Assembly (NCBI GenBank): GCA_012959435.1
Contig: DUDF01000074.1
Coordinates: forward strand, 37,234-101,233
DNA from: Candidatus Poseidoniales archaeon
GTDB taxonomy: Archaea > Thermoplasmatota > Poseidoniia > Poseidoniales > Thalassarchaeaceae
Direction: 5' to 3'
DNA length: 64,000 nt
In this document: in pieces, positions 2,765-60,236 of the stretch
How positions within the stretch are numbered: the stretch's first letter is position 1
How the letters are laid out: every line of letters starts with the position of its first letter
The notes under the pieces: generated by a model
Databases searched by the model: none
Seen by the model: the letters and a program-made list of their open reading frames with translations, nothing else
What the model was told of the DNA's origin: nothing
Translations under genes and position numbers: made by a program

Positions 2765-3478
2765 ATGACCACAGTACTTCAGGCACAACAATTGTGGAAG
2801 ATCTACGACACAGGTTCAGTTAAGGTGAAGGCTCTCAAGGGAGTTGACTTAGATATTTCAGAGGGAGAGATGGTCGCTATAATGGGCCCGTCCGGCTGTG
2901 GTAAAACCACCTTTCTAAATTGTATTTCAAGTCTTGATGAGTTCACTGCTGGTGAAGTCTTGGTAGACGGTCAACCTCTCTCCGAGATGTCTGATAGAGA
3001 GCGAACTGACATGCGCAAAAACCGGCTTGGATTTGTATTTCAGTCTTTCAATCTGATCCCTGTTCTTTCCGCTGTTGAGAACGTTGAATTACCACTTATT
3101 TTGAAGGGGAAATCTAGCAAGGATGCTAGGGTTATTGCTCTAGATGCGTTGGATGCAGTTAGTCTAAAAGAATGGGCCGGCCATTTGCCTGCGGAATTAT
3201 CTGGTGGCCAACAACAGCGAGTAACAATTGCCCGCGCATTTGCTCATCAACCAGCGTTAATTTTAGCAGATGAGCCAACTGGAAACCTAGATACGACAAC
3301 TTCTAAATCCGTAATGGAATTACTTGTCAATTTGAATCGCAATAAAGGAATCACATTTGTTATCGTCACTCACGAAGAGGAAATAGCACGTCAATGTACG
3401 AGGCTAATAACAATCCAAGATGGCTTGATTACAAGTGATGAGAGCCTTGTGGGGATGGATGGCTCTGAAGAAGAATAA
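2765..3478 (+). CDS. ABC transporter ATP-binding protein, MacB/LolD family
   Basis: Walker A 'GPSGCGKTT', Q-loop, signature 'LSGGQQQRV', Walker B 'LILADEPT', H-loop 'VIVTHE'. The stop codon abuts the GTG start of the permease at 3479. Confidence 0.9.
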   Translation: MTTVLQAQQLWKIYDTGSVKVKALKGVDLDISEGEMVAIMGPSGCGKTTFLNCISSLDEFTAGEVLVDGQPLSEMSDRERTDMRKNRLGFVFQSFNLIPVLSAVENVELPLILKGKSSKDARVIALDALDAVSLKEWAGHLPAELSGGQQQRVTIARAFAHQPALILADEPTGNLDTTTSKSVMELLVNLNRNKGITFVIVTHEEEIARQCTRLITIQDGLITSDESLVGMDGSEEE

Positions 3479-8239: not shown

Positions 8240-8313
8240 TACAAAATTTATGTACCAAAATCAATACGATTGTGCGTTTACAAGTGAATTACCTAACAAA
8301 GACTCGCGCATAG

Positions 8314-8321
8314 TATAAATA
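8314..8321 (+). promoter_or_regulatory. Candidate TATA box (TATAAATA) for the 8366 gene, with a GGAGG Shine-Dalgarno-like motif at 8353-8357
   Basis: 'gcgcatagTATAAATAtgg' sits ~45 nt upstream of the ATG. GGAGG lies 8 nt upstream of ATG 8366. Confidence 0.4.
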
Positions 8322-8365
8322 TGGATTGAACAGGTGGGGTAATCCCTTAGTGGGAGGACTGTGAC

Positions 8366-11300: not shown

Positions 11301-11617
11301 ACACCACTGCTGATTCTAGCATGGATATTACAATGGACAGGCACTCAGGATCTGGTGTCTTCTACTACTCAGTAGCAGCAGTTGATTCAGTTGGTAACAT
11401 GGAGACAGCAGCCTCCACTGCAGGTTTGAGATTCACTGATGACAGTGGGCCAGGCGTGAACGTTGACGACACTATCGGTGTTGAAGGTGGAGAAGGAGAA
11501 ATCCCAACCCAAGCTTGGATTGCAATCGGCATACTTGTCCTAGTGGCAGTTATCGCAGGTGCATTCATCCTAACCCGCGGTGGCGGCGAAGGCGATTCCG
11601 ACGAATTTGACTACTGA
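8366..11617 (+). CDS. Secreted, C-terminally membrane-anchored cell-surface protein (CARDB-like N-terminal domain, FN3-like C-terminal repeats), 1,083 aa
   Basis: Signal peptide 'MKRATSLVLALLMLMSIVASL'. CARDB-like 'GEEVLFDIVIKNDGDNDISELTVTVTV'. FN3-like units '...IDLSWNITN...YEFLVRVENG' and 'IHFTWSATD...YYSVAAVDSVGN'. C-terminal TM 'AWIAIGILVLVAVIAGAFIL' followed by 'TRGGGEGDSDEFDY'. Confidence 0.7.
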   Translation: MKRATSLVLALLMLMSIVASLNPIELNEKEQVDDTNGRADYEVWLMGANSPRESTTDMTGTVRNSVDAGEEVLFDIVIKNDGDNDISELTVTVTVSPKSNSSSLLINAEDAAVCDDIISCGIQNFASGDYLANGHYIVRDSTGANLAWTPAVPGMYTIHIEIDAADQDTNLNNNILDYDVDVVDWYDISTELTWDSGDDPMSGAGPHGFTMTAFVNGSAEWAPRDVQMDVTMNGLFQAFHDDGTNTNPVSMFSTTSDGANSGPMENCPQGPGASSCTWTVNFGELFGAGQNLTTNDIEVFSNLSMEPPTLEMASDRGETRQVPDFQTAYTFAGTIQGDSANANGVGTFTVMSSLSKYTMYEMISTEDQSGAHPPAAPTITMEERDHTLDDRNGNNDALITATFASYHDAQVINVEAGNPRQESGRLDAGMTRLFATIAHSGSDRNINYDWMVMFNVKDSNGDDIMGSPFPATECDNPDDPEGSTSHEYLGEMFPATLEATACNTIMIDPGMFSVSATVNLIDASMTDGDNATDCTLSTTPDCKVDMNTANDMRTGHFEVLNSGPSAYLTMDEVEGDIIDGTHITFSARAEHLSQPDMDMDGNPDPFGYMWSMSGNEMDPQLDMCSGQQDPMTGNVMGGSPDCTVDMNLMWLGSPTMIVTVVDYWGADASAQLTFNVWNNYSNVNSGDCWSAEYDILYAGNQQYTAQFSDADGVTNQELPGSTARYDSVCAFEMEVSGILAPTDVNSEDLTVTLDADPTVGHSLWYEGGTGWVELAGTTQTQVDADTINLSWSNDGTLPSRSSSRYAVFASATIGQPPLIGVDSLTATLSTAGVIDLSWNITNQQLTGAGDFGVLYVNDAGAALDGTRSTFELTTTTHTISGTHGTTYEFLVRVENGQVGADDSALYGTPVDSGSATADGQVDPTAGAADLEAVSSGESSIHFTWSATDTSDVNNWLICWSPAQHTSLEVSSLITAGNCHTTADSSMDITMDRHSGSGVFYYSVAAVDSVGNMETAASTAGLRFTDDSGPGVNVDDTIGVEGGEGEIPTQAWIAIGILVLVAVIAGAFILTRGGGEGDSDEFDY

Positions 11618-26996: not shown

Positions 26997-28688
26997 TCAT
27001 GCAAATGGTATTGAAGCGGTTTTGTGCGTGTTCAAATTGACAACTGTTAGGATACACGGTTTAGGCTGGAATCCAAGCATGCGCATGTATCCTGTCTGGT
27101 CCTGCCATGTGCTACTTTGAATCAGAGTGCTTCCTTTGTAATCCCCACAGTGATGCCCATGTACGTGTCCTGTGACAAAGATGTCTGGGATCTCCTCAAT
27201 CACCATGTGGTCCTCAGGTTCTGGCGACAGTGGGGTTTTGCCGCCCCAAGATGGCGCTAAATGGCGCCTCTCTAGCATTTCTGCCATAGCAACTTCTGGC
27301 TTACTGAATGTCACGTGCTTTATTGATGATACAAAGTCCATGATACTCACGCCGTGGTAGGCAAGAGTTCGAACCCCGTGCAGGCTGAAATCACAGGGGT
27401 TACCAACAAATGTGGCGCTGTTGAAATATTGCTGAATCATTGGGTCAAGAGATGGTTGTGGCTCGGCAGGGCGTACCGCATCGTGGTTCCCAGGGAGAAT
27501 GATGGTCTCAATCCAGTCAGGTAACAATTCAGTGAGGCGAGCCATTTCTCCGTACTGCTGGTATAGGTCAACAATCTCTAATTCTTTGTCTTGGTCTTTG
27601 TAAATCCCTACACCATCAACAACATCACCTGAGAGGACGAGATACTTGATGGTCTTCGCAAGCGGGTCACTATGGAACCATTTCACTAATTTTTCCCATT
27701 GGGAATGAAGGAATGTTTTGGAGCCAACATGGATATCCGAAACGAATGCAACTGATACAGCTTGGTTCTCTTCAGCACGACGTTTCGTGTGTGTTGTCAT
27801 CGGTGCAAGATGTATGTCTTCGACTAATAGCATGTCTCTGCTACCCGGATTGATGAAGCCGGTTACTCCTACAACATCGTCCTCCATTAATCCGGCAACT
27901 GCAATGGTGTTTCGCCGCTTTGCTGCGGGCGAATCATCCATGGCTCGCGGTGGACGTAGTACACAGAATATTTCGCCGCTAATATCTTCAACCTTGAAAT
28001 GGAGATTTTCACCTTTGTGCCTAACATCATTGACTAGTCCAACGATTGTAGCAGTATTGTTGCTGCTCGAATAGCGAGATTTATCGCGGGCGAGTTGACT
28101 GGTTTCAATCGGCCTATTTGGCAATCTACCCGAAGTTACTAGCATCCGTTTTATTTTTTCTAGACGACTATTGAAACAGGAAATAATATCAGTTAATTTT
28201 CCTTCAGTTGTACTTTTTCCCGTGATATCAAAGTGCACATCCACCTCCACATCAACATCTGTTGCTAGCATCGGAAATCCATCTAGAGCGAAATGTGGAA
28301 GTCCATGTGGTCGTTCTGCTGCTTTTGGTTCTGGCGGACTAATTGGGGCAAGGACACGCCCCGGTGAAGACTTGTTGTCCAAGTCTTGTTTTGATGCATC
28401 TAGAACAGGGACCATCTCGTTGAAATCTTGAGGTTCAGGAATTATAATCGAATCATCATCTTTTGTCGACTTACTTGTTCCAGAGCGAGCCAATTCTTCA
28501 AGATTTGATAAAATTTCATCAGTCAATAATCCAGAAATCCCATCATTAACTGCAATTGAAATTAACTGATCTAGATCATCAATCGCTAACAATCTCTCAC
28601 TAATATTAGCAGCTGGAAACAATTTTGCTGCGAGTAATTTCAGCGAGATTATACGCCAGCCCCCGTCCGCCATATCTTCAAGGCGCAC
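26997..28688 (-). CDS. polB: DNA polymerase II (PolD) small subunit DP1
   Basis: Calcineurin-like phosphoesterase motifs 'VAFVSDIHVGS', 'LVLSGDVVDGVG', 'ILPGNHD' and 'FVTGHVHGH', preceded by an OB-fold-like region. This is an archaea-specific replicase subunit. Confidence 0.85.
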   Translation of the reverse strand: MRLEDMADGGWRIISLKLLAAKLFPAANISERLLAIDDLDQLISIAVNDGISGLLTDEILSNLEELARSGTSKSTKDDDSIIIPEPQDFNEMVPVLDASKQDLDNKSSPGRVLAPISPPEPKAAERPHGLPHFALDGFPMLATDVDVEVDVHFDITGKSTTEGKLTDIISCFNSRLEKIKRMLVTSGRLPNRPIETSQLARDKSRYSSSNNTATIVGLVNDVRHKGENLHFKVEDISGEIFCVLRPPRAMDDSPAAKRRNTIAVAGLMEDDVVGVTGFINPGSRDMLLVEDIHLAPMTTHTKRRAEENQAVSVAFVSDIHVGSKTFLHSQWEKLVKWFHSDPLAKTIKYLVLSGDVVDGVGIYKDQDKELEIVDLYQQYGEMARLTELLPDWIETIILPGNHDAVRPAEPQPSLDPMIQQYFNSATFVGNPCDFSLHGVRTLAYHGVSIMDFVSSIKHVTFSKPEVAMAEMLERRHLAPSWGGKTPLSPEPEDHMVIEEIPDIFVTGHVHGHHCGDYKGSTLIQSSTWQDQTGYMRMLGFQPKPCILTVVNLNTHKTASIPFA

Positions 28689-38013: not shown

Positions 38014-38061
38014 TCTTAATCATCCGTGAAGGATAAATCACCGGTGCCGGTGGGCTTGTTC

Positions 38062-39324
38062 ATGCGGCGGGTCAGCATACCTCTAGTATTGCTTCTTCTA
38101 CTAGTCCCAACGGCAGTGGCGCAAGAAAGTTCCTCGGTGGTAGTGGTATCGACAGAACTGTTCATTGGCGACTCAGATATGGGTATTGATGCTCTAGCAG
38201 TTTCACCATCAGGAGAAGATGTACTTTTAGTTGGAACACTGGGATATGCCCATTTTATCGCTGCAGGTAAACCGTTCAATCAGGTTCAATTAAATTCTAA
38301 TGATCAAGATGACCTAAATGATGTTGATTGGCACCCTCAAGGCCTTACTGCATTACTCGCCGGGGATGAGGGGACACTCTTGCGTTATACAAGAGATGAC
38401 CACTCTGTAATTCATGTGCCAGGCTCAACAGGAAATTTAATGTCTCAAAATTTGAATGCTGTAACTTGGGATTCATCAGGTAACTGGGCTTACGTTGGAG
38501 CAGATAGTGGTGTCATCACTAGATTCAGAGAGGATGCTAACGGTGATTCCGAGTATTTTCCATTGAATAATAGCAAGAGTTCACCAATTCTAGACATTAG
38601 TTGCTTGCACAAGATGCATGCAATGTGCCTAGTAGCAACTGAATCAGATGGAATGGCTGTTATTGACCAACAGCATGAACTTCACTGGCTTTCAGGCAGT
38701 GAAGGTACCAGATGGTTCTCAGTTGAATGCCCTCATGCTGAGAGAGACAGGTGTTTCGGGGTTGGCCAAGGGCATTCAGTCGGTATTGTTGAACTAGATT
38801 TGAACAATCCTGCAACTTCATATGTGTTAGTCAAGAATGTAGAAATTTCCGGAGAATTCACCGGAATACATGTTCGTGACAATAATCACTTACTTTTGCA
38901 AACAGCACCTTTTGGCTGGGTTGATTGGGATATCAAAGGTGGTACTGATGAAATGGGGCTGGCCTATCCATGGTTGGAAAATTCAGATGCTACCGGAGAT
39001 GATGCAGCACTAAGGGGGGAGTCACTCGTAGGTGGCTGGGCAATCAATTCTGACGAAGGATATGCCGTTACTTCTTACGGTCGGGTGGTGTATTATTATC
39101 CACCTCAAAATACAATTTCGGAAAACCTAGTGGCAGCTCTTGCGCCAATGCTCGTCATTATTGCAGTTCCTGGTGTGGTTGTTGGATTGATTTACATGAG
39201 TTCACCAGCCTTGCAGAAAAAATACATGGCTTGGTCAAATGGGCGATTGGCCGCAAAGAGAGAGGCGGCTAAGGCAAGTAAAGGTCAATTGCAAGGCAAA
39301 GCGAGAAAGGGTGCTAAAAAGTGA
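38062..39324 (+). CDS. Secreted beta-propeller-like protein with C-terminal TM anchor and basic tail
   Basis: Signal peptide 'MRRVSIPLVLLLLLVPTAVAQE'. About 7 repeated blade-like units are visible (e.g. 'LLAGDEGTLLRY', 'AYVGADSGVITRF', 'YAVTSYGRVVYYY'). TM is 'LAPMLVIIAVPGVVVGLIY', followed by a Lys-rich tail. Confidence 0.5.
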   Translation: MRRVSIPLVLLLLLVPTAVAQESSSVVVVSTELFIGDSDMGIDALAVSPSGEDVLLVGTLGYAHFIAAGKPFNQVQLNSNDQDDLNDVDWHPQGLTALLAGDEGTLLRYTRDDHSVIHVPGSTGNLMSQNLNAVTWDSSGNWAYVGADSGVITRFREDANGDSEYFPLNNSKSSPILDISCLHKMHAMCLVATESDGMAVIDQQHELHWLSGSEGTRWFSVECPHAERDRCFGVGQGHSVGIVELDLNNPATSYVLVKNVEISGEFTGIHVRDNNHLLLQTAPFGWVDWDIKGGTDEMGLAYPWLENSDATGDDAALRGESLVGGWAINSDEGYAVTSYGRVVYYYPPQNTISENLVAALAPMLVIIAVPGVVVGLIYMSSPALQKKYMAWSNGRLAAKREAAKASKGQLQGKARKGAKK

Positions 39325-43611: not shown

Positions 43612-44229
43612 TTAATCATCAATAGCATTCACAGCATCTACCAGTTCTTGCTCCATTTCCTGTTGGCCAAGTTCAACTCTTGACGGGCCAAATGGGTCTT
43701 TTCCATCTTCTAACATTGTAAGCATCCTGTAACGAGGAGCCCAAGAAAGATGTACATAAATTGGGCCCGGTGCAAGCATTAGCAACCATGCTAGCACCTC
43801 TGGGATTTGAGGGACAAGGTCCATCCAACTACCTAACAAGATGATGAATCCAGCAAAAGGCATGATGAACAGCACTGCTCTTGGTGGTGTGATTGGTGGG
43901 CGTTGGAAAAATTTGCTAATCAAGGATGAAAATTGTCCTGCTAATGCCAATCCAAGGGCGATACTCAAACCTCTAAAGGCAACTTCTCTAAACCAAAACT
44001 CGACATTCCAAGAGTTGTGATATCCAATTGGAATAATCAAGGCAGCCATTAGCAGTAAACCATAGAATGCCCCCACAACTGCTGGATGACTTACTGAAAG
44101 TGGCCAAGCGGCGAAACGTTGTGTCATTGGAGAGCCGAGAAGCATCTCGGTTTGCGCTTCATCAAGCGACTCCAAGCGCTGGCGCCATGATTCCATATTT
44201 TGCCGCTGCTGACTAAACCGCATTAACAT
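43612..44229 (-). CDS. Hypothetical polytopic membrane protein
   Basis: About 4 hydrophobic segments and an acidic C-terminus. No recognisable motif. Confidence 0.4.
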   Translation of the reverse strand: MLMRFSQQRQNMESWRQRLESLDEAQTEMLLGSPMTQRFAAWPLSVSHPAVVGAFYGLLLMAALIIPIGYHNSWNVEFWFREVAFRGLSIALGLALAGQFSSLISKFFQRPPITPPRAVLFIMPFAGFIILLGSWMDLVPQIPEVLAWLLMLAPGPIYVHLSWAPRYRMLTMLEDGKDPFGPSRVELGQQEMEQELVDAVNAIDD

Positions 44230-44253
44230 TAAGGTTTAATGGGAGTGTGGGTA

Positions 44254-44955
44254 TTACTGTTCACCATCCTTCTTGATGATGTCAGAATTATGTTTTCTCA
44301 TCTTACGAAGTAATGCTCCAGGCTCTGGTGCTAAAGAGCCCTGTGCAGTTTCTTCCCACACCCGCTCCACGGGATAAAACGCCATTTCTTCTCGCCCTCT
44401 TGCCTTTTCAATTGGGTCTTCTGAATCCAAATCCCTTTCTTGTGCGTCGCGGAAAGAAAGAGCCTGATTGATCAACGATACAACACTGCGGGTAATTGAG
44501 TCAGGTTGGTGTTGCCATCGCAACATAGTTTTGCCATTCATATCATTTTTCTTTAGAAGAGTGCTCTGCTTCCCTGAACCTGATTGGGGGGTGATGCGAA
44601 CGTTTGGTGGGATTGAGTGCCATGATTCATCATCTGAAACGAAAACAGAGTTGTTTTCCATACTTTCACTGGGGTGCCATGGGTGTCCAGTTCCAATTGC
44701 AACCAAGTTCAGTAATGTCATCTTTCTGATACTTCTAGAAAGTTCCTTCCACAGTAAGAAGGCGATAACTGCAGTGACAATTAACAGGCTAATCCAATTT
44801 TCCAAACCAAGAAAAGATAGGACTTTGAAGCAAATTATTATCGCAAAAAACCCTGCAAATGCCAGAAACACTGCATTATACATATTTTGTCGTTGAACGT
44901 TGGCAATTTCAGAGTTAACCGACCACAAAACGGCATCATCTGGTAGGTCATCCAT
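44254..44955 (-). CDS. Hypothetical membrane protein (two N-terminal TMs plus a soluble C-terminal region)
   Basis: 'AVFLAFAGFFAIIICFKVL' and 'WISLLIVTAVIAFLLW'. No recognisable motif. Confidence 0.4.
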   Translation of the reverse strand: MDDLPDDAVLWSVNSEIANVQRQNMYNAVFLAFAGFFAIIICFKVLSFLGLENWISLLIVTAVIAFLLWKELSRSIRKMTLLNLVAIGTGHPWHPSESMENNSVFVSDDESWHSIPPNVRITPQSGSGKQSTLLKKNDMNGKTMLRWQHQPDSITRSVVSLINQALSFRDAQERDLDSEDPIEKARGREEMAFYPVERVWEETAQGSLAPEPGALLRKMRKHNSDIIKKDGEQ

Positions 44956-45113: not shown

Positions 45114-45545
45114 ATGCTCCCTGATAAGTTGCTAGAAATGGATACTGATGAGGCTATTTCGTATGCCACTATTTTGGCAGTTGCTGCCACTTGTGATGGT
45201 GGTTTTTCACCAGAAGAGATGAGTGCTTATGAGTCTCGAGTGGCCTCTCTGCTTTACCAAAGAGATGTTAGAAAGAGACTTAGTGAAATAGTTGGGGAAC
45301 AGATAGATATTGATTTACATCTTAATGCACTCTCCCCCAACGGTATCAAACTCCTTCTACGTGACACAATTTTGATGGCTGCTTGTGATGGCGAATATAC
45401 TGATGAAGAGATGAAATTGATTAAGCGAGTAGCTCAGAAAGCCGGAGTTGATGATGAAACTTTGAACCAACTTTACCTATGGGTGCTTGAGGGTTGGGGC
45501 TGGTTTGGCCGCGGACACCAAATTCTTGGCATGTCTGATGATTAA
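45114..45545 (+). CDS. TerB-like (tellurite-resistance TerB / DjlA N-terminal fold) domain protein
   Basis: Two helical half-repeats each carry a buried acidic motif: 'AVAATCDGGFSPEEMSAY' and 'LMAACDGEYTDEEMKLIKRVAQKAGV'. Confidence 0.5.
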   Translation: MLPDKLLEMDTDEAISYATILAVAATCDGGFSPEEMSAYESRVASLLYQRDVRKRLSEIVGEQIDIDLHLNALSPNGIKLLLRDTILMAACDGEYTDEEMKLIKRVAQKAGVDDETLNQLYLWVLEGWGWFGRGHQILGMSDD

Positions 45546-45718: not shown

Positions 45719-48106
45719 ATGGCTGAACTACCCAAGGGCATCACCAAGGAGGTGCGTAGAGGTGGTTCGGGGGTGCTTGAGTTGCTCCTGATTGACTTCG
45801 ATAAAGAAGGCAGTAGCGGTTATATTCGAATTCAACAACCAACCAATCCGGTAAGTATCGCCCAACTTGTGATTTCAGATGGTGCACCTGAAATGGCTCT
45901 GTTTGAGTCTAATGAATTATTGATGGGTCATAGTGCATTGGAAGAGTTGAGAAAATGTGCTGCAGCGGATGATTCACGGATTTCAGTTCATACAGATGTT
46001 GATCTTGGATTGATTGCTGATTTACATCCTGAGGCAAAGTTGCATTTTTCTGGTTCAGATACATCTGTTGACAAGAAAGCTCAGGGATGGATAACGAATA
46101 CAAGGCGAGATTCTGATTGGTGGCGTTCAAAACGTAATCGCGAATGGACGATGACTGAACAGACTTTAGATGATGGTGAAGATGATTCTCAGGTGAGTGA
46201 TGTTTCTGATATTATTGAATATAATCCTGGGGAAGAATTGGAAGGCGGTTGTAGTTATCTAATCGATGAACAGATGCCAGATTCGGTGTTTAGAGTTGCC
46301 ACACACCTTGCTGCTATCGGCCATCCCATTATGGTGATGTCTCGTAGCCCACCTAAGCGCATTTCTGATGATTTCGGAATACCAACCTCAGTTTGCCGTT
46401 GGCTCAGTGAAAGAGATGTTGAAGGAGTGAGGACAGTTAACCCCGGGTTGGAAGAAATTCGTAGGGAATGTGATGAGTTCTTGTGGGGTTCATCAAGAGC
46501 AGTCATCATTCTTGATGGAGTTGAATATCTCAGTGGGATTCATGGTTTTAGCCGTTTGATAGGGATGTTACGCAATTTATTTGATGGGATTCAAACTTCA
46601 AACAATATGGTATTAATCCCTGCTGATTTTGATGTTTGGGACCAGCGTGAACGTTCACTATTGATGCGAGAATGTGACCAAATTAGTGCCAGTAAAATTA
46701 GTGAATGGGCTGAGAGGCCCGCAGTGGTTGAAGGCCACCCCTTCTGCCAAGAAACAGAATCGTTAATGATTCCAGAACCACAAAGAATCGACATCGTTAG
46801 TGAGGCTGAGGGTGATTTCAAGGCAGCAGCAACCCGCCTTCTTTCCACTGCTGAGGAGTTACAAGAGTCACCAACAATAGACGATTCCAAGAGTGCTGTT
46901 ACGGTGCCTCATTTTACTCAACCAGAAACCTCCTTTTCAGCGCGTTCTTTACTTGATGAGATGAAATCAGAAGTAGAACCAGAATTAATCACTTCACCAG
47001 AGGTAATCTCAAATGAAGAACCGTCAGAATCAATTGGGCCCAGTGGCGGTGAGGAAGATGGTAATTTTGCACTTCCAAGTTGGGCAACCACTCCCTCGGC
47101 TAACATGAGTGATGAGTCACCAACCATTTCTCAAGAATCCCCCTCAACTCCTAAATTAGATATCCCTCAATCTACTGAAATAATTGAGGTTCCGATTCCT
47201 GCTGAAGATAATTATGAGGCAACAGTGGGTGTTGACGATGTTAATTCTTCTCAGCCGGCTGAACCAGAATATACCGGGCCAAATCAACCTACCGTAAATT
47301 ATCGCAATAAGCAAGAGAGACGAGTAAGTGTACCCCGTAAACCTGACATATTACAATTTGAAAAGGCATCAATGCACTATGCAGCAACAAATAGTAAGCA
47401 ATTTGAAGGGCAGTTGGAAGACTCCGGTTATGAAGCGATAGATAAATCTGTAACTGCCCTCAATTACAAGAAGGATGCATTTAGAGAAATCGGTGAATGG
47501 GAAACTGATGAAGAAAGGAACTGGGAGGTGCTAGAGACTCGTGGGATGAGTGCCGCAGTTGACAATTCAAAGTCTCTTCGCCATGGTGTGAAAGTTTCAA
47601 AATCTGCTACAATTTCTGGTGTTAACACATGTCAATGGGGTGCTGCTGTGGTTAGCGCTTCGGTAGAAGTTCCAACTGCACCCGCACCGATTTTGGTGAC
47701 TAATCCACTTGCTAGAGAATCAGCTATTCGTGTACAGAAATCAAAGACTCTTACACAAATGTTAGTTGGCTCAGAGTTAGAAGCCCTTTATGCCGACCGT
47801 AAGCAAATGGCGAAGCGGTCTGGAATTAATTTGAAGATTCTTGAGAGAATCGATAGTTTGGCTGATAAAGGGCATCCAATTCATCAACTTGTTGACCGTA
47901 TTGAGGCTAACTCGAAGGAGGGATTGAAATTGCTTACAGAATTTGAAAAGAAATCAGTAATTGTGAATGATTTAATTACCCAAATTAATATCCAAGAAAG
48001 TAGGTCAGTAATTGATTCAACGGTTGCTGCCAAATATCGTAAGCAACTCATCCAATTCGAACAGGTTGAAAAAATACAATCAATGTTAGATGACTTTGAG
48101 GGTTGA
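45719..48106 (+). CDS. DUF835-domain protein with long disordered Ser/Pro/Glu linker and C-terminal coiled coil, 795 aa
   Basis: DUF835-like core 'PIMVMSRSPPKRISDDFGIPTSVCRWLSE...NPGLEEIRRECDEFLWGSSRAVIILDGVEYLSGIHGFSRLIGMLRNLFD...LIPAD...RERSLLMRE'. The N-terminal ~110 aa form a small globular domain. The C-terminal ~130 aa are heptad-rich. Confidence 0.6.
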   Translation: MAELPKGITKEVRRGGSGVLELLLIDFDKEGSSGYIRIQQPTNPVSIAQLVISDGAPEMALFESNELLMGHSALEELRKCAAADDSRISVHTDVDLGLIADLHPEAKLHFSGSDTSVDKKAQGWITNTRRDSDWWRSKRNREWTMTEQTLDDGEDDSQVSDVSDIIEYNPGEELEGGCSYLIDEQMPDSVFRVATHLAAIGHPIMVMSRSPPKRISDDFGIPTSVCRWLSERDVEGVRTVNPGLEEIRRECDEFLWGSSRAVIILDGVEYLSGIHGFSRLIGMLRNLFDGIQTSNNMVLIPADFDVWDQRERSLLMRECDQISASKISEWAERPAVVEGHPFCQETESLMIPEPQRIDIVSEAEGDFKAAATRLLSTAEELQESPTIDDSKSAVTVPHFTQPETSFSARSLLDEMKSEVEPELITSPEVISNEEPSESIGPSGGEEDGNFALPSWATTPSANMSDESPTISQESPSTPKLDIPQSTEIIEVPIPAEDNYEATVGVDDVNSSQPAEPEYTGPNQPTVNYRNKQERRVSVPRKPDILQFEKASMHYAATNSKQFEGQLEDSGYEAIDKSVTALNYKKDAFREIGEWETDEERNWEVLETRGMSAAVDNSKSLRHGVKVSKSATISGVNTCQWGAAVVSASVEVPTAPAPILVTNPLARESAIRVQKSKTLTQMLVGSELEALYADRKQMAKRSGINLKILERIDSLADKGHPIHQLVDRIEANSKEGLKLLTEFEKKSVIVNDLITQINIQESRSVIDSTVAAKYRKQLIQFEQVEKIQSMLDDFEG

Positions 48107-48149: not shown

Positions 48150-50075
48150 TTGGTGGAGGGTATGAGTAGACGAACAATTCTCCAACAACAACTGGAGAAA
48201 AGCAAGCGGTTATTGTCGAAACGGACTTCTAATCCGACCGGTTCTAAGTTGGATTCACCTCAACCATCCCTTGGGAAATATGTTCGAAGAGGCAAACCAC
48301 CTCAAGTGGGTAATCCATTTGATGGCCCATTTCTGCATTCAACTTCAACCGCAGTCAAAAAGAAAACGGGGGATTTTGGTACCATTGCGTCTCAAAGGCT
48401 CAAGAGGATGCGCCAGGGTGTGGAAGCAGAGGCGCCAATGATTGACATTGACCAAGCCCCTCTAGAGACAAACCCTAACTTCCCTGCATGGGTACACTCA
48501 GACGTTGAAGACACAGACAATAGAAACTCCTCAACACCGTTGTGGCGCGAAGTCCTATCCGAGCAGAGAGAGCATGTAAGGCCGAGTGAATCTGCTCGCT
48601 TGCATCATTCTGAACTTACCGGTACAGTTCCACCCACTGTTGAATCACCGTTGAATATGATGGCAGAAGAGTTGGCTATTGGTCGGCCTCAATGGCCTTC
48701 CATCTTTACACCTAACCAAAACTTCACTTGGAGTAATTGGCAAGTTGGGCCCAACAACCGTTTGGCGAGTACTGCTGGAAATGAGGTGATAACTCACCCA
48801 TCTGAACGAGCAAATCCTCTCATTATTATTGGAGGAGAAGGTGTCGGAAAAAGTCATATTTTGAGGGCAATCGGATCATCGATGCATACTAGGTCACCAG
48901 AAGGCGAAGTCCGAATCATTACAGGGGGTTCATTTCCTTCCCAGTTATCTGATGATTGGGTAGATGCGATACAGGGTTGTAGTACACTTCTTATTGATGA
49001 TATTCAATTGATTAGCTACGATGGAGAAGAAAACCTAGGTATTATCATTGACAGTTGTCTTAATTTTGGAGTTCAAGTGGTAATCACTTCTAGTGAAAGC
49101 TGCAATTATTCAGGGTTACTAGGTGGTGCACTAAGGTCATCTGTTGAAGTCAATATAGGTGATCCAGATGTTATGACATTGGTACTTTTTATGAGGCACC
49201 GAGCCTTGGTTAGGGGTCTCTCTCTATCAGATGAACAATTGCGAGCAATTGCAGTTGCATCTGATGGTGATTGGAGTGTGACAGAATCTGGTTTTGAGGC
49301 GGTAGCACTAGCAATTGAGGCAGGGGCTGAGCCGTTTGGAGTCGGCGATATTGAAACAATACTTTCGGGAGAAGAATTAGTCATGCGTGGTGATGATGGC
49401 CTAATCGCTTGGGATACTGAAAGAACAGGACAGCAAATTGTTCGTGAGGTGCTTGACCATGTATTGCCCAAGGAGCACCAACCAAATGTTGATATTATCA
49501 GTGAGTTGGAATCAATTGTTGATGATTATCAACCCCCAGAGTTAATGCCTGATACGAGTAGAGATGCAGTAGATTCACTTATTGAGAGGCATCTTGGTCG
49601 TGAGAAAGGTGCCCTAGAAGATGCTCGTGATAGAATTGAGGAGTCAGGACTTCCCACTACATTAGAACAACCAAGAGGCGAAGTCCCCAATATTGATTTG
49701 ATGAGTGAAGGATTCCTTGATCGGTTAGAATCTAGACTCCATAGGCATCAAGATGAATTATTTTCTTTACACGGTCAGATGGAGGATATTTCGAGTAAAA
49801 TTGAGAATGCTGAACCAAAGGAATTGGTTGAAATGGCCGATAAAATGCTTGAAATTGAGCGTAAACTATCTCGCATTTCAAAATTGGGAGCAGGCGAATC
49901 TCTGAAGAGTAGAACAAAGCCAGAACGCCCTTACGAAGCATCTGGGATAGAGGAATACATTCCAGAAACGGAATGGGATATTGATGAAGAATCAGTATTT
50001 GCAGATGATTTGTTAGCACCTGCGGCTCCTTTACGACCGGTGGTAATTCTCAGGGTCGATGACTCTGAAGAATGA
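48150..50075 (+). CDS. DnaA/Hda-like AAA+ ATPase-domain protein with no recognisable DnaA domain IV, 641 aa (alternative start ATG 48162)
   Basis: 'FTWSNWQVGPNNRLASTAGNEVITHP..ANPLIIIGGEGVGKSHILRAIG' (Walker A at 48831-48857), 'LLIDDIQLI' (Walker B ~48987-49013), 'GVQVVITSS', 'LRSSVEVNIGDPDVMTLVLFMRHRA...GLSLSDEQLRAIA'. These are co-linear with DnaA domain III boxes. Confidence 0.65.
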   Translation: MVEGMSRRTILQQQLEKSKRLLSKRTSNPTGSKLDSPQPSLGKYVRRGKPPQVGNPFDGPFLHSTSTAVKKKTGDFGTIASQRLKRMRQGVEAEAPMIDIDQAPLETNPNFPAWVHSDVEDTDNRNSSTPLWREVLSEQREHVRPSESARLHHSELTGTVPPTVESPLNMMAEELAIGRPQWPSIFTPNQNFTWSNWQVGPNNRLASTAGNEVITHPSERANPLIIIGGEGVGKSHILRAIGSSMHTRSPEGEVRIITGGSFPSQLSDDWVDAIQGCSTLLIDDIQLISYDGEENLGIIIDSCLNFGVQVVITSSESCNYSGLLGGALRSSVEVNIGDPDVMTLVLFMRHRALVRGLSLSDEQLRAIAVASDGDWSVTESGFEAVALAIEAGAEPFGVGDIETILSGEELVMRGDDGLIAWDTERTGQQIVREVLDHVLPKEHQPNVDIISELESIVDDYQPPELMPDTSRDAVDSLIERHLGREKGALEDARDRIEESGLPTTLEQPRGEVPNIDLMSEGFLDRLESRLHRHQDELFSLHGQMEDISSKIENAEPKELVEMADKMLEIERKLSRISKLGAGESLKSRTKPERPYEASGIEEYIPETEWDIDEESVFADDLLAPAAPLRPVVILRVDDSEE

Positions 50076-50130: not shown

Positions 50131-50610
50131 TCAAATAAATCTGAATCCTTTCTCAGCAATACGGTCAGCTTCTAAATTCAACTTGATTGAATCACCATGA
50201 ATTTCGATTGCGTCAGCATGGTCAATTCCAGGGCATAGTGCTTTGGTTTTCTCCCACGCCCTACTCGAAACTAGATTTTCCCGCCAAAAAGGAAAGGCTG
50301 AACATTGGGCCGGTTTCGCCTCATAAATACTACAAGTTTTTTCACCTGTTAAGTAGATACAACGACCATCTTCTGGTTTAGATTCTAATACAAATCTTCC
50401 ATCAAAACTAGTACGGCAGTTTTTCGTTAGCCATTGCTTTAAACTAACTTCAAGGTGTTTTGCAATTCTTTCAGCATCTTCGCGTGAGAGGTACACGATT
50501 CCCCCAGGCTCATCACAACAGCGCCCACAGTCAGGAAGACAAGTGAAGTTAACGCCACTCTCCCACCAAGGCTCCTCTCGGCTGCCGAATTTCCGCTTCC
50601 ACCCAGACAT
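50131..50610 (-). CDS. YkgJ-family (CxxCxxCC) zinc/iron-chelating cysteine-cluster protein
   Basis: 'CLPDCGRCCDEPGG' and 'CIYL...KTCSIYEAKPAQCSAFPFW'. Confidence 0.65.
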   Translation of the reverse strand: MSGWKRKFGSREEPWWESGVNFTCLPDCGRCCDEPGGIVYLSREDAERIAKHLEVSLKQWLTKNCRTSFDGRFVLESKPEDGRCIYLTGEKTCSIYEAKPAQCSAFPFWRENLVSSRAWEKTKALCPGIDHADAIEIHGDSIKLNLEADRIAEKGFRFI

Positions 50611-55812: not shown

Positions 55813-57021
55813 TCATATTTGAGGGATGGAGGGCAGGCGTGGTTTTGGCTTAGATTCCTTCTTTGGAGGAGTTGGAATCGTTGGTAGTGAAGGTGGTGTG
55901 CGGGCATTTGTTGCTGGGGTAGGTGCCGTTTTTCTTTCTTTCTTGATTACAGGCATTGGAGGTGCATCAGTGAATTCGATAGGTCTGCCGAACAGAGTCC
56001 AAGAATTCAACTCAATGTCAAATACTGCTTTGTCAGGTAATCCGCTAGGCCGAGTTGGCATAGCTCCACTCTGCGCTTCTTTCACCTGAGGTACAACAGG
56101 GGTTTCAACTGGTTTCACATATTTGTTTTCGACAGGGGGAGTCTTTACTTCAACAACCACCGGTTTGGGGATAGATTGCTTAGTAGGTGTACTAGGGAGG
56201 CTTGGCAAGGATGGTTTCTCTTTGGTTTCGGGGACAGATATCTCTTCAGAATTAATTGTGACATCATCTTCGGACCAAGGCGAATCATCAAGCCAGCCTA
56301 GTTCATCATTTTCGGAGACTTCTTCATCCTGTACATCTTGTTCAGTTGATTCAACGATTGACTCAGTTAGGTCAATAACTTCCGTGTCATCATAAGTGGA
56401 GGTCACAGTATCGTGGCTATCTAGAGTGATATCTTCAGTTTCCTCTTGAATTATTTGGCCTTTGATTAACTCGTCATCAACTCCCATTTCTAGAGCCACC
56501 GCTTTCATTTCCCCAAGTGCATCGGCAATAATATCTGCAGCCGGAGTGTCGCCACCACCGACAATATTTGACACGATAGCGGCTGTAGTGGGGTTCACAA
56601 CACTTAACCCGCCGGGCTTTGATACAGATACTTGACCAGATTCTAGTTGCTCACGCTGTGAATCTGCGCTAATTTTCGAAGGCCCTGCGATGGATTCTCG
56701 TTGTCTGAGGCCAATAATTGCGATCACCAATGTTACCACCATCAGAAATATCATAGCGAATTCTTGGCCAGTGAAGGACCCAGCATCAGACCAAAAACCA
56801 CCTTCTTTGTATGGTAAATTCAATGTCTGTCTGATGTATTGTAGGAGGTGGAATTTCTGTCCCCTACTTCCACTACCAATGAGGCCGGCGGGGAACAATC
56901 CAAGTATCCCATTTAGCAGAACACCCAAAAATTGGGATATGGAAATGACCATTGCGAGTTTGCCAATTTTCGGATATCGCCTCTCCATCAACCTCTCCCC
57001 AGATATCCGTGATAGACTCAT
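55813..57021 (-). CDS. Hypothetical membrane protein with acidic and proline-rich C-terminal regions, immediately upstream of tatC
   Basis: Two N-terminal TMs, an Asp/Glu-rich central region, and a C-terminal 'PSLPSLPSTPTKQSIPKP...PPSLPTIPTPPKKESKPKP'. Start is uncertain (the ATG at 56988 is possible). Confidence 0.4.
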   Translation of the reverse strand: MSLSRISGERLMERRYPKIGKLAMVISISQFLGVLLNGILGLFPAGLIGSGSRGQKFHLLQYIRQTLNLPYKEGGFWSDAGSFTGQEFAMIFLMVVTLVIAIIGLRQRESIAGPSKISADSQREQLESGQVSVSKPGGLSVVNPTTAAIVSNIVGGGDTPAADIIADALGEMKAVALEMGVDDELIKGQIIQEETEDITLDSHDTVTSTYDDTEVIDLTESIVESTEQDVQDEEVSENDELGWLDDSPWSEDDVTINSEEISVPETKEKPSLPSLPSTPTKQSIPKPVVVEVKTPPVENKYVKPVETPVVPQVKEAQSGAMPTRPSGLPDKAVFDIELNSWTLFGRPIEFTDAPPMPVIKKERKTAPTPATNARTPPSLPTIPTPPKKESKPKPRLPSIPQI

Positions 57022-59519: not shown

Positions 59520-60236
59520 ATGGCAGACTTGTTAGCGATGGTCGTTGATAGCGATTATTGGTTTAGTCTGTTGAATACCAAATCTACAGATTTGTATAAG
59601 CAAATGCAAGACAAATCAGCAAGAAAATCACGGCCAGAAATGGCTGATTTTATTGACCGCCGCTTTGATGTTGATGTTGAAGCAGAGATTCTTGACTGGA
59701 TTGAAGAACACGATATCATGGATGAGGAAGATTCGGTATTGCTCACCGCCTCAAAACGTTTGGTGTCTGGCGGTAATATCGAGGATATCGCTTCAGGCAT
59801 GTGGCTATTAGCAGAATGGGCTAGTCTTGGCACTTGGAGATGCATGGAAGGTAGGGGTTATCTCTACTTGGAACCATACAGTGGGGAATCGATTAATCAA
59901 GTAGGTCAACTCTATGAGCAGCGGATTTGGGATGCTGCTATTAAGAGCATCACAACGATGTCAAAACAGCAGTATTCCGAGACAGTAGTAGTCGATTGGA
60001 TGGGGCGTAGAGAACTGTTGGGAGAGACTCTTAATGAGAAAAATGACCCCCGCATATTGTCAACAATGCAGAGTCACCAAAGGCACGCAGAGTCACTTCA
60101 CGGATTGGCAGAATTAATTGCAGAAGGGGATACGATTTTACTAACAAGAAGAGATTGGTCATCATACCTAAATGCTGGATTCGGTGGGTTCAAAATTAGA
60201 AAGCTTCTCACCTCAAACATAGGAGGGGGTAAATGA
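59520..60236 (+). CDS. Hypothetical protein, translationally coupled (ATGA overlap) to the NMNAT gene
   Basis: 238-aa ORF with coding-like composition. I recognise no motif. Its stop overlaps the ATG at 60233. Confidence 0.45.
   Translation: MADLLAMVVDSDYWFSLLNTKSTDLYKQMQDKSARKSRPEMADFIDRRFDVDVEAEILDWIEEHDIMDEEDSVLLTASKRLVSGGNIEDIASGMWLLAEWASLGTWRCMEGRGYLYLEPYSGESINQVGQLYEQRIWDAAIKSITTMSKQQYSETVVVDWMGRRELLGETLNEKNDPRILSTMQSHQRHAESLHGLAELIAEGDTILLTRRDWSSYLNAGFGGFKIRKLLTSNIGGGK

What the first reader, a model, noticed from the sequence alone, without database searches (positions are those of the whole stretch)
48150..50075. A DnaA/Hda-like AAA+ domain protein occurs in an archaeal context
Residues ~190-400 are co-linear with bacterial DnaA domain III:
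- 'FTWSNWQVGPNNRLASTAG' versus the DnaA 'tFdnFv.G.sN.lA.aAa' box;
- 'NPLIIIGGEGVGKSHILRAIG' versus 'NPLfiyGg.GlGKTHLlhAig' (Walker A);
- 'LLIDDIQLI' versus 'lLIDDiQfl' (Walker B);
- 'VQVVITSS' versus 'kqivltsD';
- 'VEVNIGDPDVMTLVLFM' versus 'l.v.i.pPd.EtR.aIL'.

I recognise no domain IV (DnaA-box HTH). The core is instead flanked by a basic, disordered ~190-aa N-terminus and an acidic coiled-coil C-terminus.

Archaea initiate replication with Orc1/Cdc6, not DnaA. A DnaA-family ATPase here therefore probably has a different role, such as an Hda-like regulator, a loader or remodeller, or a horizontally acquired module. Its function is open.
Basis: partly seen in the sequence, partly recalled or inferred. 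Interest (0 to 1): 0.6.

Follow-up and report, generated by a model that had tools for sequence, protein, structure and literature searches.

The report
Degenerate DnaA-type ATPase in marine archaea
Marine Group II archaea keep a protein built on the ATP-binding core of the bacterial replication starter DnaA that has lost the parts needed to act on DNA, and it always travels with two partner genes, so it looks like a repurposed switch or scaffold of unknown job rather than a replication factor.

Summary
ORF 48150-50075 (probable true start ATG 48162) encodes a DnaA-type AAA+ domain: Pfam Bac_DnaA scores 62.6 bits against a cut-off of 23, and DnaA is the best PDB match by sequence and by fold. 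Domains I and IV are absent. The genome is a Poseidoniales (Marine Group II) archaeon with two Orc1/Cdc6 genes.

The domain is degenerate. Walker A and B are kept. The initiator-specific motif carries a deletion, the ssDNA-binding basic residues and the box VII arginine finger are gone, and sensor II is Ser here. Eight of 46 family members have even lost the Walker A lysine.

The gene is the middle of a three-gene unit: DUF835 (inactive KaiC-like) protein, DnaA-like protein, CxxCxxCC cysteine-cluster protein. DnaA-like and CxxCxxCC occur in 77 of 121 Poseidoniales genomes (DUF835 in 74), all in 13 of 21 genera. Small-genome genera lack all three yet keep Orc1/Cdc6.

Other Thermoplasmatota carry the same domains fused in one chain with intact DnaA motifs.

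Best reading: a non-replicative nucleotide-binding adaptor in this module. An Hda-like mechanism is not supported. I found no published description, and the function remains open.

The parts
48150..50075 (+). DnaA-like AAA+ protein (641-aa ORF from TTG 48150; probable true start ATG 48162, 637 aa)
   Evidence: ORF; Bac_DnaA 62.6 bits; start codon and GGAGG
48150..48704 (+). N-terminal ~185 residues, mostly low-confidence or disordered, with conserved short motifs (RRTxLQxQLEKSRRLL, FDGPF, PVWREVL, WPPIF)
   Evidence: A1 alignment; pLDDT mostly below 55; near-neutral charge
48714..49319 (+). DnaA-type AAA+ core plus lid (residues 189-390)
   Evidence: Pfam/NCBIfam; PDB phmmer; AF2 pLDDT 80-90; Foldseek
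48831..48857 (+). Walker A, GGEGVGKSH (K234)
   Evidence: K in 38/46 family members, R in 6, C in 2; alignment
48984..49004 (+). Walker B, TLLIDDI (D283, D284)
   Evidence: D284 kept in 44/46
49323..50072 (+). Conserved acidic C-terminal region (residues 392-641) with no known domain. It includes a confident helical hairpin at residues 520-577 (49707-49880) and the conserved end motifs RPYE, EWDIDE..ADDLL and LRPV.IL..EE
   Evidence: A1/A3 alignments; AF2; no PDB or Pfam match; 27 K/R against 60 D/E
45719..48106 (+). Upstream partner: 795-aa DUF835 (inactive KaiC-like) protein. N-domain residues 1-105 (45719-46033), DUF835 residues 192-318 (46292-46672), long low-confidence linker, C-terminal helical bundle residues ~663-795 (47705-48103)
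   Evidence: Pfam DUF835 61.5 bits; AF2; N-domain shared with the fused DnaA-DUF835 protein; a DUF835 gene sits immediately upstream in all loci checked
50131..50610 (-). Downstream partner: 159-aa CxxCxxCC (YkgJ-type) cysteine-cluster protein. It is convergent here and co-directional and overlapping in the MGIIa-type loci
   Evidence: Pfam PF03692 43.5 bits; adjacency in L005 and L015-L018; 77/121 genomes, 13/21 genera, next to the DnaA-like gene wherever both coordinates are listed
45114..45545 (+). TerB-like 143-aa protein upstream. It is a neighbour only in close relatives and is not part of the conserved core
   Evidence: Pfam TerB 27.2 bits; found in L005 but not in L015-L018

Best explanation
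The protein is a strongly diverged, non-replicative descendant of the DnaA-type AAA+ module. It keeps the nucleotide pocket (Walker A and B). It has lost what DnaA uses to act on DNA and to hydrolyse ATP between subunits: domain IV, the full initiator-specific motif with its basic ssDNA contacts, the box VII arginine finger and, in this genome, the sensor II arginine. It is the middle gene of a three-gene unit: DUF835 (inactive KaiC-like) protein, DnaA-like protein, CxxCxxCC cysteine-cluster protein. Poseidoniales keep or lose this unit as a block. The same domains occur fused in one chain, with intact ATPase motifs, in other Thermoplasmatota. The most likely mechanism is inferred, not shown. 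The AAA+ core would bind nucleotide as a slow switch, or act as a pseudo-ATPase. Its conserved acidic helical C-terminal half would dock the DUF835 partner and the metal- or Fe-S-binding CxxCxxCC protein. The resulting regulatory or scaffolding complex has an unknown output. It does not start or license replication.
For: Identity of the domain is shown. Residue-level degeneration against E. coli DnaA numbering comes. The ISM has a 6-8 residue deletion with no V211 equivalent. There are no K243/R245-type basic residues. R285 is absent in all 30 family members aligned. Sensor II is Arg in only 24/46 members and Ser in this protein, and the Walker A Lys is replaced in 8/46. That replacement argues that hydrolysis is not the conserved function. 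The module evidence is as follows. A DUF835 gene lies directly upstream in the window, L005, L015, L016, L017 and L018, with 4-nt stop/start overlaps in three of them. No terminator-like site lies between the two genes here. CxxCxxCC lies directly downstream in all of these loci. DnaA-like and CxxCxxCC are found in 77 of 121 genomes and DUF835 in 74, and each gene is present in 13 of 21 genera. Rosetta-stone fusions of Bac_DnaA with DUF835 occur in P0063, L012 and P0231. The partner's N-domain is homologous to the N-domain of the fused protein L012 (26.5 bits, E 1.7e-9). DUF835 is classed as an inactive KaiC output domain of archaeal response regulators (PMC5847659). Evidence against a replication role: two Orc1/Cdc6 genes are present and the DnaA-like gene is more than 300 kb from them in closed genome G003. 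Genomes without the trio keep both Orc1/Cdc6. There is no PIP-box or Hda clamp motif.
Against: Physical interaction among the three proteins is inferred only from gene order, co-occurrence and fusions. The shared absence in small-genome genera could be a single block deletion, so the phyletic match counts as roughly one event. The AAA+ core tree cannot place the family. Grouping with the DUF835-fused proteins is not rejected (p-AU 0.26), but neither is grouping with E. coli Hda (p-AU 0.64, both long branches). In this genome the P-loop and Walker B are intact, so real ATPase activity is not excluded. The conserved N- and C-terminal regions match nothing known, so the output is unknown.
Confidence: 0.6

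Rival explanations
1. Hda-like or replication-linked regulator. The DnaA-derived AAA+ protein would modulate Orc1/Cdc6, MCM loading or another chromosome transaction in these archaea.
For: There is genuine DnaA-family ancestry. Like Hda, the family has a shortened ISM region. An Hda-sister placement is not rejected and has slightly higher likelihood. The PolD small subunit gene lies about 20 kb away in the window.
Against: Hda acts through its arginine finger and a clamp-binding motif, and both are absent here. NCBIfam Hda scores 32.7 bits against a cut-off of 194.8. There is no DNA-binding domain, and the ssDNA-contact residues are lost. The gene is not linked to Orc1/Cdc6, being more than 300 kb away in G003. 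It is absent from genera that keep both Orc1/Cdc6. Its fusion and neighbour partners are signalling or pilus-type domains, not replication proteins.
Confidence: 0.1
2. Accessory or regulatory subunit of a type IV filament or other cell-surface assembly machine, acting on a PilB/ArlI-type ATPase together with a KaiC-like partner. The comparison with ArlH-ArlI of the archaellum rests on my own knowledge of that system.
For: In Thermoplasmatota locus L011 a full DnaA-type domain is fused to the N-terminus of a T2SSE ATPase. That gene sits inside a type IV pilus locus with Pilin_N, DUF7289 and two T2SSF genes. Giant proteins P0181 and P0191 combine MshEN, the N-domain of a T4P ATPase, with two DnaA-type domains. 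The partner here is KaiC-like.
Against: Archaellin does not co-vary with the trio. Genera g9, g11 and g13 have archaellin but no trio, while g2, g3 and most of g1 have the trio but no archaellin. No pilus or secretion gene lies beside the trio in the window. The fusions involve intact DnaA cores, not this degenerate form.
Confidence: 0.15
3. Active AAA+ remodeller or loader. The protein would oligomerise and hydrolyse ATP to remodel a protein or nucleic-acid substrate, using an arginine supplied from elsewhere, for example by the partner.
For: Walker A and B are intact in this genome and in most family members (38/46 and 44/46). The AAA+ core and lid fold are modelled confidently.
Against: No arginine-finger equivalent is found in any member. 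Sensor II is variable. The Walker A lysine is lost in 8/46 orthologues that otherwise keep the gene and its partners. No pore-loop-type features were identified. The partner DUF835 is itself regarded as an inactive KaiC.
Confidence: 0.1
4. Mobile-element or defence-related DnaA-like ATPase, like the SSV fusellovirus 'DnaA-like' ATPase or the primase-fused DnaA-like ATPases of archaeal plasmids and viruses.
For: 'DnaA-like' ATPases known in archaea are virus- or plasmid-associated (arCOG07960, arCOG07809; PMC4158269).
Against: The gene sits among housekeeping genes in synteny conserved across the order. No integrase or other mobile-element gene turned up among the neighbouring genes scanned with Pfam. 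GC content is even across the region. tblastn against the phage collection hit only bacteriophage and host-like DnaA sequences and no archaeal virus.
Confidence: 0.02

Closest known systems
Bacterial DnaA, domain III (AAA+); structures 8bv3/8btg (B. subtilis), 2z4r (T. maritima), 1l8q/2hcb/3r8f (A. aeolicus)
   Same: It is the best match by profile, by sequence and by fold. The match is co-linear from the N-terminal box of domain III through Walker A, Walker B, sensor I and the lid.
   Different: There is no domain I, II or IV. The ISM is shortened by 6-8 residues. K243/R245-type and V211-type ssDNA contacts are absent. R281 and R285 (box VII) are absent, and sensor II R334 is Ser. The protein has about 185 extra N-terminal and 250 extra C-terminal residues of unknown fold. 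It scores only 70 bits on a DnaA domain III HMM on which real DnaAs score 377-402.
Hda (DnaA paralogue, regulatory inactivation of DnaA), TIGR03420; structures 3bos, 5x06
   Same: Both are DnaA-family AAA+ proteins without domain IV. They show a similar degree of divergence from DnaA (59 against 70 bits on the same HMM). Both have a shortened ISM region. A sister placement is not rejected by the AU test.
   Different: Hda keeps the arginine finger and has an N-terminal clamp-binding motif, and this family has neither. Hda is about 230-250 aa and acts on DnaA, which this organism lacks. The NCBIfam Hda score is far below its cut-off.
Thermoplasmatota single-chain DnaA-core/DUF835 proteins (e.g. 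P0063, L012:4005-5837, P0231); found uncharacterised in my literature searches
   Same: They carry the same three building blocks: an N-domain homologous to that of the Poseidoniales DUF835 partner, a DnaA-type AAA+ domain and DUF835. They come from the same phylum. Zinc- or cysteine-rich proteins are nearby.
   Different: In those proteins the domains are fused in the order N-domain, coiled coil, DnaA, DUF835, and all DnaA catalytic and ISM motifs are intact (192-268 bits). Here the domains are split over two genes in a different order, the AAA+ core is degenerate, and a CxxCxxCC gene replaces the DZR zinc-ribbon neighbours.
SSV fusellovirus 'DnaA-like' ATPase (arCOG07960) and primase-fused DnaA-like ATPases (arCOG07809)
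   Same: These are the only 'DnaA-like' AAA+ proteins of archaea that my literature search found described.
   Different: They are virus- or plasmid-borne. This gene is chromosomal, syntenic and order-wide. No similarity to viral records was found.

Membership tests
DnaA (chromosomal replication initiator, TIGR00362 / Pfam Bac_DnaA + Bac_DnaA_C + DnaA_N) | AAA+ domain III matching Bac_DnaA above the gathering score | tested here: met
   62.6 bits against 23; DnaA is the best PDB hit by sequence and fold
DnaA (chromosomal replication initiator, TIGR00362 / Pfam Bac_DnaA + Bac_DnaA_C + DnaA_N) | Full-length equivalog score | tested here: not met
   TIGR00362 75 bits against a cut-off of 343.9
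DnaA (chromosomal replication initiator, TIGR00362 / Pfam Bac_DnaA + Bac_DnaA_C + DnaA_N) | Domain IV DnaA-box-binding HTH (PF08299) and domain I (PF11638) | tested here: not met
   Neither is hit at E<=1; both are listed for the bacterial DnaAs
DnaA (chromosomal replication initiator, TIGR00362 / Pfam Bac_DnaA + Bac_DnaA_C + DnaA_N) | Box VII arginine finger (E. coli R285) and R281 | tested here: not met
   R285 position is absent in all 30 family members aligned; this protein reads ALRSSVEV after a 4-residue deletion
DnaA (chromosomal replication initiator, TIGR00362 / Pfam Bac_DnaA + Bac_DnaA_C + DnaA_N) | Complete initiator-specific motif with ssDNA contacts (V211, K243/R245) | tested here: not met
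   6-8 residue deletion; only one short helix between beta2 and the Walker B strand; no basic residues
DnaA (chromosomal replication initiator, TIGR00362 / Pfam Bac_DnaA + Bac_DnaA_C + DnaA_N) | Sensor II arginine (R334) | tested here: not met
   Ser376 in this protein; Arg in 24/46 family members
Hda (TIGR03420) | Equivalog score; about 230-250 aa, AAA+-only architecture | tested here: not met
   32.7 bits against 194.8; the protein is 637-641 aa
Hda (TIGR03420) | N-terminal clamp-binding motif and arginine finger | tested here: not met
   No QL[SD]LF-like or PIP-like motif conserved in the family; no arginine finger
Hda (TIGR03420) | Phylogenetic grouping of the AAA+ core with Hda | tested here: inconclusive
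   The free tree leaves the family unplaced. Hda-sister is not rejected (p-AU 0.64), but both are long branches and only one Hda was sampled
DnaC / IstB / DnaI helicase loaders | Profile score | tested here: not met
   IstB 16.1 against 200 and DnaI 11.5 against 228; no IstB_IS21 Pfam hit
Orc1/Cdc6 | AAA+ plus C-terminal winged helix (Cdc6_C) | tested here: not met
   No Cdc6_C in this protein. The genome's two real Orc1/Cdc6 genes lie on other contigs and do not match the family profile
AAA+ superfamily (nucleotide-binding competent) | Walker A GxxGxGK[ST] and Walker B hhhhD[DE] | tested here: met
   GGEGVGKSH and LLIDD in this protein; family-wide K 38/46 and D284 44/46. Actual binding or hydrolysis cannot be tested with these tools
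Thermoplasmatota DnaA-core / DUF835 (iKaiC) module (defined here; found undescribed in the literature searched) | DnaA-type AAA+ domain fused to or adjacent to a DUF835 domain | tested here: met
   Adjacent in the window and in all Poseidoniales loci checked; fused in P0063, L012 and P0231
Thermoplasmatota DnaA-core / DUF835 (iKaiC) module (defined here; found undescribed in the literature searched) | Shared N-terminal domain | tested here: met
   An HMM of the partner N-domain hits L012 residues 33-129 (E 1.7e-9) and P0063 (E 1.5e-5)
Thermoplasmatota DnaA-core / DUF835 (iKaiC) module (defined here; found undescribed in the literature searched) | AAA+ core groups phylogenetically with the fused proteins | tested here: inconclusive
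   Not recovered in the free tree; not rejected by the AU test (p 0.26)

The most novel reading that the evidence does not exclude
The DUF835 / DnaA-like / CxxCxxCC trio is the Poseidoniales form of a phylum-wide archaeal control system built from a captured DnaA ATPase core. It would still feed into the chromosome cycle. A metal- or redox-sensing cysteine-cluster protein and an inactive-KaiC adaptor would set the nucleotide state or assembly of the DnaA-derived subunit. That subunit would then gate Orc1/Cdc6-dependent initiation or another DNA transaction. Under this reading the most abundant surface-ocean archaea carry a bacterial-type element in their replication control.
Probability: 0.07. 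Interest if true: 0.9.

Novelty: new variant of a known kind. Interest (0 to 1): 0.55.

Why it matters
DnaA-family ATPases are textbook bacterial replication proteins, and archaea are taught to use Orc1/Cdc6 only. The data here show that one of the most abundant archaeal groups in the surface ocean conserves a DnaA-derived protein in a fixed three-gene module. They also show that the wider phylum holds many proteins with fully intact DnaA cores wired to KaiC-like, zinc-ribbon and type IV pilus ATPase domains. That makes the DnaA AAA+ core a reusable switch module outside replication. The module is a defined, testable three-protein system of unknown function in uncultured but ecologically dominant organisms. 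It also carries a practical warning: automatic annotation could mislabel such genes as replication initiators. The Poseidoniales form adds an example of an AAA+ domain drifting towards a pseudo-ATPase while the gene and its partners stay conserved.

Tried and rejected
- **PATAN/DUF4388 identity of the partner's N-domain.** This was a lead from memory and from earlier notes. Pfam was negative at E<=1. hhalign against the PatA_N proteins of L007 gave probability below 1%. Foldseek of the partner model found nothing with E<0.2. Not supported.
- **Paralogous tails.** BLASTP between the DnaA-like protein and the DUF835 partner found no similarity.
- **Known domain in the conserved C-terminal 250 residues.** A profile search of PDB and a Pfam scan of nine members gave only coiled-coil noise. 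FlaC_arch was hit in 5/9 members at E>=0.05, and AF1531 at E 0.2.
- **TerB-like gene as part of the unit.** It is present only in close relatives.
- **Link to the archaellum.** Archaellin presence does not match the trio.
- **Virus or plasmid origin.** The phage collection gave only bacterial dnaA-like hits.
- **Resolving the closest relative by phylogeny.** The family is monophyletic on a long stem but unplaced. AU tests reject neither the DUF835-fused grouping nor the Hda grouping, and the DnaC test was not completed.
- **Neighbours of the free-standing 418-438-aa archaeal DnaA-like genes (L010/L014).** These are housekeeping genes and give no clue.
Full report
**1. What is there**

The + strand ORF 48150..50075 encodes 641 aa from a TTG. 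The sequence just upstream reads GGTGGAGGGT-ATG, with the ATG at 48162. Homologues begin at the equivalent 'MSRRT', so the true start is probably 48162, giving 637 aa.

The window is archaeal. It carries the PolD small subunit (26997-28688), HMG-CoA synthase, a DRG-type GTPase, TatC and a DUF835 protein. Close homologues are labelled Candidatus Poseidoniales, which is Marine Group II. GC content is even across the region. The assembly (2.22 Mb, 77% complete) has exactly one Bac_DnaA match and two Orc1/Cdc6 genes on other contigs.

**2. Is it DnaA-like?**

Yes. Several independent lines agree:

- Pfam Bac_DnaA scores 62.6 bits against a cut-off of 23, over residues 189-318. All other P-loop families score below their cut-offs.
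- NCBIfam ranks DnaA (75 bits) above Hda (32.7), IstB (16) and DnaI (11.5). All four are far below equivalog cut-offs.
- All PDB sequence hits with E<1e-4 are DnaA chains.
- An AlphaFold model is confident for residues ~190-410. Its best structural matches are DnaA domain III: 8bv3 with TM 0.83 and rmsd 2.4 A, and 2z4r with TM 0.81. Hda, RuvB, spastin and RFC have E-values three to five orders of magnitude weaker.
- There is no domain I and no domain IV.

**3. How DnaA-like?**

I built an HMM from 13 bacterial DnaA domain III sequences and scored each group against it:

| Group | Score (bits) |
|---|---|
| Bacterial DnaA | 377-402 |
| E. coli Hda | 59 |
| E. coli DnaC | 20 |
| This protein | 70 |
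| Its Poseidoniales orthologues | 30-75 |

An alignment numbered on E. coli DnaA and counts over 46 family members show what has changed:

- **Walker A** is kept in 38/46 members. The lysine is Arg in 6 and Cys in 2.
- **Walker B** is kept in 44/46.
- **The initiator-specific motif (ISM)** has a 6-8 residue deletion. The model shows a single short helix where DnaA has two.
- **The K243/R245-type basic residues and the V211 position** are gone.
- **Box VII** has a 2-4 residue deletion, and no member has the R285 arginine finger.
- **Sensor II** is Arg in 24/46 members and Ser376 in this protein.

The nucleotide pocket therefore survives. The machinery for inter-subunit hydrolysis and ssDNA binding does not. 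Some orthologues have even lost the P-loop lysine while keeping the gene.

The best conserved part of the protein is the acidic C-terminal 250 residues (27 K/R against 60 D/E). It has invariant motifs and a confidently modelled helical hairpin at residues 520-577. It matches no Pfam family or PDB sequence.

**4. Phylogeny**

The tree used 86 AAA+ cores with Orc1/Cdc6 as outgroup. The Poseidoniales family is monophyletic (SH-aLRT 100) on a long stem of 1.25. It falls outside a moderately supported (90) crown holding bacterial DnaA, Hda, the tandem-domain proteins and the other archaeal DnaA-type domains. Its own position is an unresolved polytomy.

AU tests do not reject a clade with the DUF835-fused archaeal proteins (p 0.26). 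They also do not reject a clade with E. coli Hda (p 0.64, slightly higher likelihood, both long branches). The tree is not decisive.

**5. Context: a three-gene unit**

- **Upstream gene (45719-48106).** It encodes a 795-aa DUF835 protein (61.5 bits). The two genes are 43-55 nt apart with no terminator-like site between them.
- **DUF835 conservation.** Homologous loci sampled from two of the order's three families (L005, L015-L018) all have a 650-780-aa DUF835 protein directly upstream. Three of them show 4-nt stop/start overlaps.
- **Downstream gene (50131-50610).** It is a CxxCxxCC/YkgJ-type gene. It is adjacent in all of these loci, convergent in this genome's family and co-directional and overlapping in the MGIIa-type loci.
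- **Phyletic pattern over 121 Poseidoniales genomes.** The DnaA-like gene is in 77, CxxCxxCC in 77 and DUF835 in 74, and each is present in 13 of 21 genera. All three are absent from the 1.3-1.6 Mb genera g4-g7 and g9.
- **Relative conservation.** CxxCxxCC is far better conserved (42-62% identity outside this genus) than the DnaA-like protein (24-35% to MGIIa-type orthologues).
- **TerB-like gene (45114-45545).** It is a neighbour only in close relatives.

The joint absence may be a single deletion, so it counts as roughly one event. The adjacency across deep divergence is the stronger signal, as are the inversion of CxxCxxCC without separation and the gene fusions described below.

**6. The wider family**

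The family profile finds full-length orthologues only in Poseidoniales. The sister lineage in the same class has none. Its AAA+ part, however, hits many other Thermoplasmatota families at E 1e-15 to 1e-25.

These proteins have strong, complete Bac_DnaA domains (144-234 bits on Pfam, 145-333 bits on my domain III HMM). All DnaA motifs are intact: ISM, K/R-E..Q.EFF, TSDR, R281/R285 and sensor II. None shows a domain IV hit. The architectures seen are:

- N-domain + coiled coil + DnaA + DUF835 (L012, 610 aa; P0063, 644 aa).
- Two AAA+ domains + DUF835 (P0231).
- DnaA + T2SSE, inside a type IV pilus locus with Pilin_N, DUF7289 and two T2SSF genes (L011).
- A long N-terminus + DnaA + double zinc ribbons (L009).
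- Free-standing 418-438-aa forms (L010, L014).

An exhaustive profile search also recovered many 550-700-aa proteins with tandem DnaA-type domains. It found ~1,900-aa giants with an MshEN domain as well.

The N-domain of the Poseidoniales DUF835 partner (residues 1-105, pLDDT 85-89) is homologous to the N-domain of the fused protein L012 (E 1.7e-9). The two-gene Poseidoniales arrangement therefore holds the same three domains as the single-chain proteins, redistributed.

DUF835 is described in the literature as an inactive KaiC-like output domain of archaeal response regulators (PMC5847659).

**7. Not replication**

- In the closed genome G003 the gene lies at 1.52 Mb and the Orc1/Cdc6 genes at 1.83 and 0.70 Mb.
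- Genomes lacking the trio keep both Orc1/Cdc6.
- No PIP-box or Hda clamp motif is conserved.
- An archaellum link is also not supported, because archaellin and the trio do not co-vary.

**8. Reading**

Shown:

- A DnaA-derived AAA+ core without DNA-reading or DNA-melting determinants.
- Vertical inheritance across the order.
- Obligatory companionship with a DUF835 protein and a CxxCxxCC protein.
- Domain-level homology of the pair to fused proteins elsewhere in the phylum.

Inferred:

- The protein binds nucleotide as a slow switch, or acts as a pseudo-ATPase.
- It uses its conserved C-terminal half to assemble with its two partners into a regulatory or scaffolding complex of unknown output.

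**9. Prior knowledge**

Full-text searches found only virus- or plasmid-borne 'DnaA-like' ATPases described in archaea. One paper mentions DUF835. No paper combined the KaiC-like, archaea, signal-transduction and DnaA search terms.

Earlier AI notes of this scan describe the fused family and a Poseidoniales trio independently. I treated them as leads and re-derived the points used here.

Noticed in passing
L011:1102-9355 (genome G139, another Thermoplasmatota family): A complete DnaA-type AAA+ domain (234 bits) is fused to the N-terminus of a T2SSE (PilB/ArlI-type) ATPase. The gene sits inside an archaeal type IV pilus locus with a 957-aa Pilin_N protein, DUF7289 and two T2SSF genes.
   Followed up: partly
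P0149-P0216 and others; P0036 in L007:6020-8032 / L008: A large class of 550-700-aa proteins carries two tandem, largely intact DnaA-type AAA+ domains and no domain IV. P0036 sits in an operon with Robl_LC7, an Arf-like small GTPase and PatA_N/TPR proteins. Giants P0181 and P0191 (~1,900 aa) add an MshEN domain. Their organisms were not identified.
   Followed up: partly
L022:6961-7920 (-) and 8016-10019 (+) = own genome contig C196: A second, short DUF835 paralogue (318 aa) lies divergently next to a 667-aa protein with a double zinc ribbon and EF-hand calcium-binding motifs. Most Poseidoniales genomes that have the trio also have this short paralogue.
   Followed up: partly
L004:9949-16506: The fused DnaA-DUF835 gene P0063 is flanked by a DZR zinc-ribbon protein (464 aa), a KaiC-family ATPase (PF06745, 265 aa) and a CARDB+DZR protein (947 aa).
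   Followed up: no
control genomes: The six-frame Bac_DnaA search rings above the Pfam cut-off in Methanocaldococcus jannaschii, Haloferax volcanii and Methanosarcina acetivorans. I did not find out which genes are hit, whether cross-hits to Orc1/Cdc6-type proteins or true DnaA-type domains.
   Followed up: no
genomes G006, G024, G026, G034, G080, G118 (TGA) and G060 (TAA): The CxxCxxCC match includes one in-frame stop near its N-terminal end in several MGIIa genomes. The alignment probably runs upstream of the true start where the gene overlaps the DnaA-like gene's end. Not checked.
   Followed up: no
window 2765-8239: An ABC ATPase gene is followed by an unusually long (1,586-aa) MacB/FtsX-type permease.
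   Followed up: no
window 8366-11617; 38026-39324; 43612-44955; 55813-57021; 59520-60236: ORFs of 1083, 432, 205+233, 402 and 238 aa have no Pfam match at E<=0.001.
   Followed up: no
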